A stretch of 63,981 bases of DNA, filler included, from Octopus bimaculoides (taxonomy: Eukaryota), in assembly GCF_001194135.2 (NCBI RefSeq). It is 7 parts of 6 records of this genome, joined end to end, with 100 filler letters (N's around TTAATTAATTAA, not from the genome) between each part and the next. Parts side by side here need not be neighbours in the genome. Positions count along the whole stretch, not along the records: positions 1 to 10,340 come from NC_068990.1; positions 10,441 to 24,729 come from NC_068981.1; positions 24,830 to 29,573 come from NC_068994.1; positions 29,674 to 42,585 come from NC_069007.1; positions 42,686 to 57,945 come from NC_068984.1; positions 58,046 to 61,512 come from NC_068984.1; positions 61,613 to 63,981 come from NC_068989.1. One strand, 5' to 3'. Shown here in pieces: positions 1,590 to 63,867 of the stretch. Position 1 is the stretch's first letter, and every line of letters starts with the position of its first letter. Under the pieces are notes generated by a model. It saw nothing but the letters and a program-made list of their open reading frames with translations. It did no database searches and had not been told where the DNA came from. Made by a program: the position numbers and the translations under genes.

Positions 1590-2640
1590 ATAAGTACTAT
1601 AATTGGTCATCCGTTAGATTCCAAGTTCGCAGCTTAGTCTGGAGCTAGAGATCCCAAGTAGGCTTCTGAGTTAGCAGGTATATATAAGAGGGAAAAGGAC
1701 AACAAAAACCAAGGCAGGACGAGTGTCTCAAGTCATTTAGAATATTTAATTAGAGTAAGGTGAATTTGAAGTAATTAATTAATTAATGGATATCTTACAG
1801 CTGTTTCCGGAATATCCCATGTGATAGGTTAGCATCTCTGGGTATTCCATCATCGGACACAAGGTGAGTATGAATGAAAGTTCTAGGCAGGGATTCACTG
1901 TTTATAAAGGAATAAAATAGTAGACCGAAGAATAAAGTGTAAAATTATTGATAGAATAATACAAACAGGAGAATAAAGTTCAGAGCTCATCTTCTTCCCG
2001 AGGGTCCGTACTTCCGTAAAGGTATAGGACTTTAAGTATAATCCCAGGTAAATCCAGGCTGTATTTTGGCAGTATTTTGAATGTTGCATTCATATTGAAG
2101 GAATAGATTAAGTGGCTAGCTAGTATGAAAATGGTCCGCGTGGGTATATAGAGTGAGAAAGACGGACATCATGATAGACAGATATGGGTTGTGGGTGAGT
2201 GAATAGAATAGAGAAGAGAAAGAGAGAAAAGAAAGGAATTGGGATAGGTACGGGAAAGTATGAATGAGAGTGAAAGTAAAATAAAAATTAAAAATAAAGA
2301 TAAAGATAAGATGCCAGTATTATTCTTCGTTAGGGTCGGTTCGGGGTGAGAGGTCAGGCATTAAGGTTTTGGTAAAGTGAAAGAGGAAGGCGTTTATGGC
2401 TATTAATCAAATAGATGAATTCTAGGTTCGGTGTGGTCGGAAAAAATATTTAGTTCAGTGGTCAGTAAGTATAGCTAAAAATAGATGCCTAACTTAAGGG
2501 AGTATACATAGGCTTAAAAATACAATTAAATGGTTAAAAGTTAAAAAATTAAAGAATTAAAAATTAAAAACTAAAAATGAAAGATTATTGCAGCTAGCTA
2601 GGTTCTAATATACTCATGCTGATAGATGAAAGAAAAGAAA
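1590..2640 (-). mobile_element. Decayed 3' portion of a Penelope-like element (C-terminal remnant plus 3' UTR/pLTR)
   Basis: The minus strand carries short degenerate coding remnants (AINAFLFHFTKTLMPDL) followed by a hammerhead-like motif at 1789-1860, which is typical of PLE pLTRs. Confidence 0.45.
1789..1860 (-). ncRNA. Degenerate minimal hammerhead ribozyme motif
   Basis: Minus strand: CCGATGA (core U4>C), stem II GGAATACCCA/TGGGATATTCC, GAAA, palindromic ACAGCTGT stem III, GUA triplet. Stem I is poor. Confidence 0.5.
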
Positions 2641-2749
2641 AACATACATATATTGTAACGACCGTGCATGTATATAGGCAAGTGTTATGTGTGTTGATTT
2701 TGCTTGCATTTGGACCTGTGGAAGAATCTAAAGGTACGATAGAACTTAT

Positions 2750-3910
2750 TTAACAGACACGTTTACGCACCAGATACAACCAAGTGTGAAGCTGCAAAAG
2801 TGTTTCAAGAAATTAAAATCGTGCAACAGAAACTGAAGAAACTACGCAACCAATCATTGCCGAAGCTTGTACATCTATATCGGAGAGGTAACTATAAAAT
2901 TATCTTCACTCCATATTCTTCGACAAGATATAAGACGCTATAAATAGAAGAAAAGAAGCCATTTATCCTTGCTATTGCGTGCTCAATATCTTATACCTAA
3001 AAACTATGTAAAAACAGTCAATGGGGAAAATTTTTTGTTGCATGATTCAGCATTTGACGGCAAGTGCATTTTGGTACTTGGAACGGCTAAAAGCATAGTA
3101 TTTCTAAACAAATTCTCCTCATCGGTGTTTCGATGAAACATTTAAAGTAGTTCCTGAAATTTTTAGCCAGTTGTATATGATTCATACCATAGTAGATCAA
3201 CACACTACACCCTGAATCTATGCACTCTTGCCGGATAAGACTCAGAAGCCTTACAATAAATTGATACACGAAGACAAGAACTTGACAAATTACACTCCTT
3301 TGAGTGCAATGATAGATTTTGAAAAAGTAATACTTTATTTGTGCACTTTCTTGAAACTGACGTTAAAGGTTGCTTTTTTCATTGATGCCAAAATATACAG
3401 GAAAATAAAGGAGTTTGACTTTCAAAAGCATTATCAAAACAATATTGAATGAGGATGGTAACAGCCCTTGCCTTTATACCTCCTGAATCTGTTTAGGCAG
3501 CTTGTTCTCTATGATATTATGCCAGAAAAAGCTTTGTCAGTTTTGGATTACTTCGAAAACATATTGGCAAGCCATGTTGACGCCGAGAACCAACATTTAA
3601 CATGTTTCTTTGAAATATGCATGAAGAACAAACGCTGAACGTCGTATGAATAATTCTGTCGAAAGATGGCACCGGCGCTTTGCGTCATTTGCCGGGTGTT
3701 TCCATCCAGTCATCTGGAAGTTCATGAGTATTTTAGGATGAGAAACTAACTTTCAAAATGTTCAAATGACTCAGATTATTGCTGGTATCGCTACTGAACC
3801 ACCTAGAAAGAAATATAAGGATGCAGCATCACGAATTTTATCAGTTGTGCAAAAATACCAAGAAACAACATATTTAGATTTTCTTAGAGGCATTGCATTT
3901 ATGGTTTTAA
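2750..3910 (+). pseudogene. MULE (Mutator-like) transposase pseudogene
   Basis: Frame-broken motifs FDETFKVVPEIFSQLYMIH (first catalytic D region), YALLPDKTQKPYNKL, MIDFEK, WHRRF..HPVIWKF and EPPRKKYKD..YLDFLRGIA. Confidence 0.82.
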
Positions 3911-4597
3911 ATAAATGTTTGAAGTTTTTCAGCTATTACATCTATTCCTAAATTTTACACAAAAATATCAACTAATAAATATTTTAAACTTTTTATAATA
4001 CTTCATTTTGCAAAACTGTATAGAAAAAATTATTAAATAGTGCAATACAGTAGTATTGCTTCCCAGCAAAACAAAGCACCATCAGAATTTAGGTTAGTTA
4101 AAATATGTCACAAACAAAAATTCTCTATTATAGTAAGATGTAAAAACACCATATTTATACAGCGCTGCCCCGCTTCGGATTCCCAGATGTTGCCTTTTTA
4201 GCTTTTTAGCCGTAATCAATCTGAAATACCGAAGATAGGTGGTCCTCGACAGATTCAAAGGTGTAGCTTTAAATAAAACACAGACAATAACATTAACTGA
4301 TCTGTGCTATTAGACCGCCAGCTTTCGGTATCACCAAGCAGTATTTAGGCATAAACCAACATTAGGTTAGATAAAATATGTTTGTCACATATTTCAACTT
4401 CTAAAGGCAAATTCACTGCAGCTACCGTGGAGGAAAAATTCTCTCTTATGGTAAAAAGGTGTCAGACAAAAAGTTTCAGTGGGAGGCTGCGATGGAAAAT
4501 TTACCACTATGTAAAATGGCATACCGTGTTTGTTTTGGTTCCCTGAGCTTTGTGTTCAAATTTTTCTCTGACCTTTGCCTTTCATCCTCCCAGCTTG

Positions 4598-4712
4598 AGA
4601 AATAAAGTGCCAACCAAATCCATTCATAAGGCTTTGGTCGGCCCGAGGCTATAGTAGAAGACACTTATCCAAGGTGCCACACAGTGCGACTGAACCTGGA
4701 ACCATGTGGTTA
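4598..4712 (-). mobile_element. tRNA-type SINE fragment (family A)
   Basis: Matches the aaggctttggtcggcccgaggctatagtagaagacac...aaccatgtgg segment seen again near 33803, 34030, 40340, 41290, 50430 and 62810. Confidence 0.8.
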
Positions 4713-62364: not shown

Positions 62365-62800
62365 AAATACACTCACTCGCTCACTCGCTCACTCACTCCT
62401 TCACTCACTCACTCATTCACTCACTCACTCACTCACTCACTCACTCACTCACTCACTCACTCACTCACTCACTCACTCACTCACTCACTCACTCACTCAC
62501 TCACTCACTCACTCACTCACTCACTCACTCACTCACTCACTCACTCATTCATTCACTCACTCACTCACTCATTCACTAACTCACTCACTCTCTCGCTCAC
62601 TCACTCACTCACTAACTCACTCACTCTCTCGCTCACTCACTCATTCAATCACTCACTCAATCACTCACTCACTCATTCACTAACTCACTCACTCTCTCGC
62701 TCACTCACTCATCCACTCACTCACTCATCCACTCTCTCGCTCACTCACTCACTCACACACTCACTCACTCACTCATCGACTCACTCACTCACTCACTCAC
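62365..62800. repeat. (ACTC)n tetranucleotide microsatellite
   Basis: Direct reading. It generates the HSLT-repeat ORF. Confidence 0.98.
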
Positions 62801-63099
62801 ACGACGCGCTTCCACGCGGTTTCAGCCAACGAAATTCACTCCAAAACACTGGTCGGTCCGGGGCTATTGTAGAAAACGCTCGGTCAAAGTGCTACGCAGT
62901 GGGACTAAACCTAAAGCCATGTGGTTTGCGAAATAAGACTCTCATCACACAACCATGCTTTAAAAATTTTTCCATACACCCAAATAAGTTCATAATTAAA
63001 TGGGTAATTTTCCAGTTCAAAACAGTCTTCAACAGCTATGCTATGCACAGCTACTGTAGCGTGATACTGGCCACAGAACAATAATCTAGTGTGTTTTAC

Positions 63100-63510
63100 T
63101 ATCAATCTTAAGCTCATGCTGAATAAGAAAATTCCAATGAAGTATTTGTTCTCAAACTAGTTTAGCAACAAATCTTTATTGGCTGATCGAGCATTGCCTA
63201 TACCAGTAATAGTTTAATTCATAAAACTGAAAGTAGTTGTGTATTTCATGGGTCGGTTCGAATGATGAATTGACCTTCTGTCATTTTATAGATCCTTCTA
63301 ACCCATTGCTAGTTTCTTAAAATTGATAATCTCTTTATTGTATTTCATTAGCTGATGTCGTAGTCGTACTTTTCCCACTTGCACAGCTGCACCCTGTTTA
63401 CTGGTTTACTTGAGTCGTTAACTCATTCACCGTTTGGTTCAGTAGTTTTAATATTCATTATGACGTTCATAACCGGACTTCCAGATTGTTTAAGCTGTAC
63501 AACTTCATAT
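63100..63510 (-). pseudogene. Possible Penelope-type GIY-YIG remnant
   Basis: RIYKMTEGQFIIRT resembles YIGMTEG.FK.R. The rest is heavily decayed. Confidence 0.4.
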
Positions 63511-63822
63511 CTCAATTGAGCAAAGATATTTTTAAAAAATTCCTTTGATATTCTCTTTTACTCAAGTCACGAGTACATTGACATACCAAAGTTGTTTGCC
63601 AAGCGATAGTGGGTCGACAAACACAGACACAAATACAAATACATACATACATACATACATACATATATACATACACACATATATATATATATATATATAT
63701 ATATATATGTTGTTGTACTTGGGGATGGTCATATTGCCAGTTTAGCCAATAAAAACACACGTACTGTATATTTGGTGTTAATTTGCTTCAGCTTTATATT
63801 ACATTAATCTTAATCTTATTTC

Positions 63823-63867
63823 GGCCAGAGTTCTTTCGTCACACTTCTGTGACCTCATCAGTGGTCC
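63823..63867 (-). ncRNA. Minimal type I hammerhead motif with intact core
   Basis: GGACCA CTGATGA G GTCAC agaagt GTGAC GAAA G aa CTC TGGCC. Stems I and II form, with one extra G before stem II. Confidence 0.6.

What the first reader, a model, noticed from the sequence alone, without database searches (positions are those of the whole stretch)
1789..63867. Window-wide census: about ten minimal hammerhead motifs from several unrelated repeat families
Seen: hammerhead-like motifs at 1789(-), 6733(-), 8719(+), ~31975(-), ~33215(+), ~44240(-), ~44545(+), 48538(+, 3' half only), 56942(+), 57020(-), 60484(-) and 63823(-). Stem II sequences differ between families, yet stem III is repeatedly palindromic or one substitution away (ACAGCTGT, CAATTG, AACGTT, AATATT, ACGT, ACCGG[T>C]). 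Established: palindromic stem III allows minimal hammerheads to work as dimers. Inference: at roughly one per 6 kb, this genome may hold a very large and diverse set of PLE- or retrozyme-derived ribozymes, many on non-coding elements. I do not know whether this has been catalogued for this species.
Basis: partly seen in the sequence, partly recalled or inferred. Interest (0 to 1): 0.8.

Follow-up and report, generated by a model that had tools for sequence, protein, structure and literature searches.

The report
Octopus Penelope hammerhead fossils, tRNA-headed family
This stretch of octopus DNA holds about eleven mostly decayed copies of a small self-cutting RNA motif, likely left by Penelope-like jumping genes (a known association), and one abundant family also carries a tRNA-like head, so it is likely a short non-coding element that borrows Penelope enzymes.

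Summary
The census is largely real. A scored minimal-hammerhead scan finds 10 sites at 17 bits or more against 0.92 in 93 shuffles. Only 3 are intact; the rest are fossils. They come from about 8-9 insertions of 7-8 unrelated families, because three pairs are inverted arms of single insertions. The context is Penelope-like (PLE): a Hydra-clade endonuclease lies between one pair, arms are inverted with a tail on one side, and decayed PLE reverse transcriptases lie nearby. Minimal hammerheads in PLEs are published, including one from octopus, and PLEs fill 6.8% of the O. vulgaris genome, so the density is expected. The new part is family D (44184-44690, 48464-48595): tRNA-like head, (AAT)n, linker, hammerhead, tail. 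Reads and contigs from other copies repair the fold at five broken positions and show inverted 3' pieces abutting the head at six breakpoints. It is likely a PLE-mobilised, SINE-like element, in the order of 10^4-10^5 copies. Cleavage, Pol III transcription and circles were not shown.

The parts
1791..1861 (-). Family A hammerhead fossil: U4 changed, stem I broken, 7-bp stem II, perfect 8-nt palindrome in stem III; (TA)n 113 nt downstream
   Evidence: 18.2 bits, 0.38 per shuffled window; dimer fold pairs stem III between molecules
6640..7160 (-). Family B sense arm with intact Hydra-type hammerhead (6736-6793) and a 58-nt extension absent from the other arm, ending in (TA)n
   Evidence: 26.5 bits; alignment of arms; 87.6% inverted match
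7602..8238 (-). C-terminal GIY-YIG-type endonuclease fragment of a Hydra-clade PLE (CxCx5C, CxxC, CxH)
   Evidence: translation; 4101 relatives at E<=0.001, C-terminal in a 720-aa relative; motif definition PMC8557442 section 11; Pfam itself gives no hit
8340..8814 (+). Family B inverted arm with intact hammerhead (8721-8779)
   Evidence: 26.5 bits
31925..32084 (-). Family C inverted arm, hammerhead decayed (A9 and G12 lost), continues about 70 nt further than the other arm
   Evidence: 80.7% match to 33146-33303; 9.9 bits alone
33146..33303 (+). Family C arm; hammerhead 33160-33263 with a 77-nt branched stem II, stem I GTAC/GTAC, A9 replaced or deleted in both arms
   Evidence: 22.2 bits; stem I pair probability 0.99
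36959..37012 (-).
   Evidence: 17.8 bits, 0.49 per shuffled window
44184..44356 (-). Family D copy D1: tRNA-like head (44293-44356) joined, after an internal deletion, to a decayed hammerhead (44239-44282); lacks the tail
   Evidence: 20.0 bits
44371..44690 (+). Family D copy D2: 5'-clipped head with B box, (TAA)25, linker, hammerhead (44558-44602), 3' region and 35-40-nt tail
   Evidence: 21.3 bits; linker and tail match loose ends of other copies (table 7)
48464..48595 (+). Family D copy D3: inverted 3' end with tail (48464-48530) abutting a copy truncated inside stem II; only the 3' half of the hammerhead is present
56940..56981 (+). Family E hammerhead with the published U3-A8 core variant, one mismatch each in stems I and II; probable, not certain
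   Evidence: 17.2 bits, 0.75 per shuffled window; variant described in PMC4209133
57016..57063 (-).
   Evidence: 17.8 bits, 0.49 per shuffled window
63825..63864 (-). Family H intact minimal hammerhead (3-bp stem I, extra base after A9, 6-bp stem II, 2-bp stem III); (TA)n 120 nt downstream
   Evidence: 30.8 bits; stem I pair probability 0.93
15282..15791 (-). Decayed reverse-transcriptase fragment read as PLE-type (context)
   Evidence: tblastn with an Octopus protein, E 1e-22; that protein has a weak RVT_1 hit below cut-off; PLE assignment from recalled motifs
26729..26944 (+). Second reverse-transcriptase fragment read as PLE-type (context)
   Evidence: 7 Octopus homologues at 68-90% identity

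Best explanation
The window holds about eleven minimal type I hammerhead motifs, three intact and the rest decayed, that are likely the retained 3' ends (pseudo-LTRs) of truncated Penelope-like retroelement insertions, and family D is likely a non-coding, tRNA-headed element copied by the same enzymes. Shown: the motifs exceed chance; three pairs are divergent inverted arms with an extension on one arm only; one pair flanks a Hydra-type endonuclease fragment; family D's majority letters give a complete hammerhead; its head and hammerhead sit together in both arms of one insertion. Inferred mechanism: a master element is transcribed (family D probably by Pol III from its A/B-box head), two RNA copies pair through the palindromic stem III and cut themselves, a PLE reverse transcriptase/endonuclease copies the RNA from its 3' end into TA-rich DNA, usually stops early and often adds an inverted 5'-truncated copy. 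Because the hammerhead lies 40-120 nt from the 3' end, nearly every truncated copy keeps it, which gives the high density. The inserted copies then decay, much of it at CpG. Most copies would not cleave today.
For: Shuffle tests. Inverted arms and one-sided extensions match the PLE insertion pattern in PMC8557442. Hydra motifs in ORF 7602-8238; family B's layout (extra base on each side of stem II, 9-nt stem III) resembles the Hydra motifs in File S2. Family D pile-up at 80% likeness: majority differs from D1 and repairs the fold at 44246 (C15.2, 73% and 71% of DNA depth in two species), 44251 (C11.1, 73%, 77%), 44270 (G10.1, 869 of 935 and 658 of 709 RNA reads), 44239 and 44282 (fourth stem I pair, 89% and 85% in X1), matching the published consensus with an extra base after A9. 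Inverted 3' pieces abut the head at six breakpoints (44235, 44236, 44238, 44249, 44273, 44281). 5 of 11 sites have (TA)n within 120 nt downstream against 17% of random points within 150 nt. PLEs cover 6.83% of O. vulgaris in 190 families.
Against: Only family B is tied to a PLE protein; A, E, F, H and I rest on one copy each, and E, F and I are individually near chance (0.5-0.75 per window). No autonomous partner sharing family D's 3' end was found. G10.1 is seen in only 27% of summed DNA contig depth (unexplained). The pile-up favours D1's own letters, so lack of variants in the core is weak evidence. RNA reads lie equally on both strands, make up about 330 and 278 per million, and no ends pile at the predicted cut (44243/44242). 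Monomer folds of D1, D2, E and B6789 do not give the active structure. ARAGORN and Rfam do not call the decayed head a tRNA.
Confidence: 0.8

Rival explanations
1. Family D is a chance chimera: an independent short tRNA-derived SINE with an (AAT)n tail, into which PLE 3' ends repeatedly insert because PLEs target microsatellites; the unit does not move as one.
For: PLEs prefer microsatellites; the 3' part has two to four times the summed depth of the head; the direct head-(AAT)n-linker-hammerhead link is seen whole only in D2.
Against: Both arms of the D1/D2 insertion carry head and hammerhead; inverted hammerhead-side pieces abut the head's 5' start at several different breakpoints in both DNA runs and both RNA runs (tables 5, 5c), which an insertion into the tail would not give.
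Confidence: 0.12
2. The motifs belong to active non-LTR retrozymes: tandem units that are transcribed, self-cleaved and circularised at high level.
For: Retrozymes occur in molluscs (PMC7229834) and are proposed to derive from PLE pLTRs (bioRxiv 10.64898/2026.07.22.740005); a 148-bp x4 array at 35598-36187 has core-like words; one contig shows a direct tail-to-head joint of family D.
Against: No intact motif lies in a direct tandem here; the array scores 13.3 bits or less (11 per shuffled window); family D reads are modest, on both strands, with no 'goes back' joint in the two RNA runs, which may however miss small circles.
Confidence: 0.1
3. The motifs are chance matches picked by eye in AT-rich, repeat-rich DNA.
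For: Loose criteria give 28 vs 23; 60484 is at chance level; Rfam finds nothing.
Against: Top-tier excess in every shuffle set and repair of the fold by majority letters of family D.
Confidence: 0.03

Closest known systems
Minimal hammerheads in PLE pseudo-LTRs (Cervera and de la Pena 2014, PMC4209133)
   Same: Type I, 3-5-bp stem I, extra base after A9, G10.1-C11.1, palindromic or absent stem III, U3-A8 variant, many unrelated families per genome, mostly single, some opposite-strand pairs.
   Different: Reported counts are thousands per genome (2,000-9,000) of motifs passing a descriptor; counting fossils, this window extrapolates to some 10^5. No octopus in their supplement.
Hydra-clade PLEs, including Hydra-1_Obim (Craig et al. 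2021, PMC8557442)
   Same: Endonuclease motifs, (TA)n ends, inverted 5'-truncated arm, hammerhead layout of family B.
   Different: Family B's hammerhead sequence differs from the listed Hydra-1_Obim motif, so it is another family; only a 3' fragment is present.
Schistosome Sm-alpha / Sj-alpha SINE-like elements with hammerheads (via PMC6765202, PMC8490949)
   Same: Short non-coding repeat with a Pol III-type promoter followed by a type I hammerhead.
   Different: Sm-alpha is described in tandem arrays; family D is dispersed, carries the minimal PLE-type motif and inserts with inverted arms and a one-sided tail.
Animal non-LTR retrozymes (PMC7229834; bioRxiv 10.64898/2026.07.22.740005)
   Same: Non-autonomous, hammerhead-bearing, proposed to use PLE enzymes.
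   Different: Defined by direct tandem units and abundant circular RNA; neither shown here. No tRNA head in the parts I read.

Membership tests
PLE minimal hammerhead | CUGANGA / GAAA / UH core with stems I and II, above chance | tested here: met
   intact at 63861, 6789, 8725
PLE minimal hammerhead | Family consensus keeps core, extra base after A9, G10.1-C11.1, palindromic 15.2-16.2 | tested here: met
   family D only, five repaired positions; other families not testable without the genome
PLE minimal hammerhead | Covariation within families | not testable with these tools
   2-3 copies per family; the pile-up gives column counts only. Stems differ between families around the same core
PLE minimal hammerhead | Self-cleavage as a dimer | not testable with these tools
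   no pile of read ends at the cut; only family A's predicted dimer shows the expected stem III and a stem I-like helix
Penelope-like element | RT plus GIY-YIG endonuclease ORF next to the pLTR | tested here: inconclusive
   endonuclease fragment for family B only; RT fragments are not linked to a motif
Penelope-like element | Inverted 5'-truncated arm and one-sided tail | tested here: met
   B, D1/D2 and D3, C and I in part
Hydra clade | CxCX5C linker, CxxC and CxH motifs, C-terminal endonuclease, (TA)n ends | tested here: met
   no tree was built
tRNA-derived SINE (family D) | A and B boxes in a tRNA-like head; no T4 run in the sense strand | tested here: met
   B box in both arms; A box-like start only in loose ends of other copies; one T4 run in D2 where other copies have T3; box patterns are recalled
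tRNA-derived SINE (family D) | Head assignable to a tRNA; Pol III transcription | tested here: inconclusive
   no ARAGORN or Rfam tRNA call on the decayed copies; RNA reads unstranded in effect
tRNA-derived SINE (family D) | 3' end shared with a partner LINE, target-site duplication | not testable with these tools
   no genome held; insertion pattern is PLE-like instead
Non-LTR retrozyme | Direct tandem units each with an intact hammerhead | tested here: not met
Non-LTR retrozyme | Abundant circular RNA | tested here: inconclusive
   no back joint in two RNA runs, about 6% of each read; library type may miss circles

The most novel reading that the evidence does not exclude
Family D is a SINE whose partner is a Penelope-like element rather than a LINE: a Pol III tRNA-derived head fused to a PLE 3' end with its hammerhead, amplified to tens of thousands of copies in at least two octopus species; and octopus genomes hold several hundred thousand hammerhead-derived motifs, more than any count I found in print.
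Probability: 0.45. Interest if true: 0.62.

Novelty: new variant of a known kind. Interest (0 to 1): 0.42.

Why it matters
The census itself extends a known association to octopus and is explained by published PLE abundance. Family D matters more: what the hammerhead does in PLE retrotransposition is an open question (PMC8557442 says so), and a 300-nt non-coding element with its own promoter, hammerhead and tail would be a minimal substrate to test it and would define the cis signals that PLE enzymes need. It would also reclassify part of the large 'unclassified SINE' fraction of octopus genomes (1279 families) and give a marker for finding truncated PLE copies.

Tried and rejected
No genome is held, so no genome-wide scan. 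Rfam: 0 hits at gathering; no hammerhead or tRNA in E-value scans. Family D pattern: 0 matches in metagenome and viral contigs. Related-locus search with an endonuclease relative: 79 candidates, none confirmed. Word-based protein searches with the endonuclease found nothing; Pfam did not name it or 7 relatives; the atlas gave unnamed clusters, one with GIY-YIG on 11% of members. No RNA holder was listed for the stretch. No earlier scan findings. Rejected: 60484; 59727 (8.2 bits); 23703 and 51394 (chance range); 36552 (13.8 bits, no BLAST link to family A); the 148-bp array as a proven retrozyme. I rejected reading selection from low variant shares at G12 and G16.2, because the B-box CpG shows the same asymmetry (40% at the site where D1 carries the decayed letter, no listed DNA variant at its partner). 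I rejected reading the higher share of core variants in RNA reads as selection, because non-core positions rise too. Lunse 2017 and Albertin 2015 are not held; Ohshima and Okada 1994, Repbase and Dfam were not seen, so family D may already be listed there as a SINE.
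Full report
Setting. The window is 32% GC with 58,537 called bases, rich in microsatellites and repeats. All 7 protein homologues of a fragment at 26729-27010 are labelled Octopus, at 68-90% identity, so the source is very likely an octopus. No whole genome is held.

Is the census real? Rfam gives nothing at its thresholds or in targeted E-value scans. I then scored cores, stems and spacings with weights taken from general hammerhead knowledge and from PMC4209133 (extra base after A9, U3-A8 variant). 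Against 93 block-wise dinucleotide shuffles there are 10 sites at 17 bits or more (null 0.92, max 3) and 6 at 20 or more (null 0.08) (one search agrees). The scoring was written after I had seen the motifs, so the exact bits are soft. One site at 37008(-) was missed. That leaves about 11 motifs, one per 5-6 kb.

Independence and state. 6789/8725, 31975/33164 and 44278/44562 are divergent inverted arms; each pair is best read as one insertion. This gives 8-9 insertions from 7-8 families whose flanks are unrelated. Only 63861, 6789 and 8725 keep the full core and three stems. The palindrome list is partly redundant: family D's majority is ACGT and the ATAT of 44562 is its double CpG decay; the two family C segments are each one or two changes from a CGATCG palindrome (inference); family B has a 9-nt stem III with a non-palindromic loop. 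Inverted arms put one motif in antisense, so the cis dimer of the literature is not available at these loci (inference).

Penelope context. Between the family B arms lies an ORF with CxCx5C, CxxC and CxH motifs. It has 4101 relatives at E<=0.001 and is C-terminal in a 720-aa relative. These motifs, and (TA)n ends, define the Hydra clade (PMC8557442 section 11), whose File S1/S2 already lists an octopus element with a hammerhead of similar layout but other sequence. The same paper describes inverted 5'-truncated arms and a 30-40-bp tail on one end. One arm runs on by 58 nt in B, about 70 nt in C up to a gap and 35-40 nt in D. Two decayed RT fragments lie at 15282-15791 and 26729-26944. PLEs cover 191 Mb, 6.83%, of O. 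vulgaris (PMC13282606 supplement); at an assumed 300-500 bp per truncated copy that is one copy per 4-7 kb, so the density is what one would expect (inference from another or the same genus member and from one window).

Family D. D2 reads head, (TAA)25, linker, hammerhead, 3' region, tail; D1 has head and hammerhead with the middle deleted; D3 is an inverted 3' end abutting a copy cut inside stem II. I laid 4 of the 24 listed runs on D1 (44184-44423) at 80% likeness: 4786 and 4517 contigs from DNA runs of two species, 4252 of 12.9 M and 3324 of 12.0 M RNA reads. At five places where D1 breaks the fold the majority letter repairs it: 15.2 (73%, 71% of DNA depth), 11.1 (73%, 77%), the fourth stem I pair on both sides (89% and 85% in X1), and 10.1 (93% of RNA reads but 27% of DNA depth, unexplained). 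The result fits the published consensus. No other letter reaches 10% of DNA depth in the listed core rows, but the method favours D1's letters and 8 rows were not shown, so I give that little weight. Loose ends show an A box-like start before the head, (AAT/AAC)n after it, the D2 linker before the hammerhead and the D2/D3 tail. Inverted 3' pieces join the head at six breakpoints across all four runs (one joint has 38 and 16 reads and a contig; the others one contig or two reads each); 7 of the 11 listed joints are strand switches and one is a direct tail-to-head joint. Summed depth over single-contig depth gives 3-8 x 10^4 for the 3' part and 0.7-1.8 x 10^4 per head position in X1; the tool warns that this is no copy number, so it is an order of magnitude only. 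RNA reads lie on both strands alike and no ends pile at the cut, which fits passive read-through and shows neither Pol III transcription nor cleavage.

How it likely works. See Best explanation: transcription of a master copy, dimer-dependent cleavage, PLE-driven copying from the 3' end, truncation with an inverted arm, then decay. The structure and family consensus are shown; every catalytic and transposition step is inferred from the PLE literature, where cleavage in vitro is weak and the role is called unclear.

Literature seen. PMC4209133: parts 1-2 of 4 and supplement passages (one file not searched). PMC8557442: passages, section 11, supplement part 2 of 59. PMC7229834: passages and discussion. 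bioRxiv 10.64898/2026.07.22.740005: parts 1-3 of 5, supplements closed; 35 species, no mollusc named in what I read. PMC13282606: passages and whole supplement, no mention of hammerhead. Passages only: PMC6765202, PMC6962438 (235 Rfam hammerheads in giant squid), PMC8490949, PMC4758252, PMC10886601, PMC9115989. Nine searches listed no octopus hammerhead census and no tRNA-headed, PLE-mobilised element; I read listings only for most rows. Lunse 2017, Albertin 2015, Ohshima and Okada 1994 and the repeat databases were not seen and may hold family D under a SINE name.

Verdict. Observation mostly right, interpretation partly right. The census is a new instance of a known kind (interest about 0.25 alone). 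Family D is a likely new variant and lifts the score to 0.42.

Noticed in passing
window 35598-36187: Four tandem 148-bp units, each with a hammerhead core word and GAAAC on the minus strand but no sound stems; size and layout recall a decayed retrozyme array.
   Followed up: partly
window 36530-36590: Shares a 10-mer and the 13-mer around the stem III palindrome with the family A motif at 1856, but no significant alignment.
   Followed up: partly
window 33171-33247: Family C has an unusually long (77-nt) branched stem II, and both arms lack A9, so the family may have spread without a working ribozyme.
   Followed up: partly
window 56740-56830: By eye, a frameshifted stretch upstream of site E resembles the C-terminus of a PLE endonuclease (recalled motif, no tool hit).
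   Followed up: no
window 27151-28023: A 184-bp inverted repeat (90%) follows the RT fragment at 26729: another PLE-like inverted structure, no hammerhead detected.
   Followed up: no
loose ends at 44243: 356 and 301 RNA reads carry a family D copy whose stem III lacks three bases; probably one well-expressed host transcript with a dead motif.
   Followed up: no
loose ends at 44356: The consensus beyond the head's first base reads as an inverted start of the head, suggesting that head-to-head full-length pairs are common.
   Followed up: no
window 13294-13331, 18039-18289, 33031-33148, 47986-48074, 52514-52693: Several MITE-like or hairpin inverted repeats. These and the inverted PLE arms would form long double-stranded RNA if transcribed.
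   Followed up: no
window 44760-45990 and 55760-56690: Two decayed mariner-type transposases (weak Transposase_1 hit for the first).
   Followed up: no
window 61614-61640 (-): Core word, 3-bp stem and GAAAC run straight into an assembly gap at the 3' end of a LINE-like fossil; cannot be judged.
   Followed up: no
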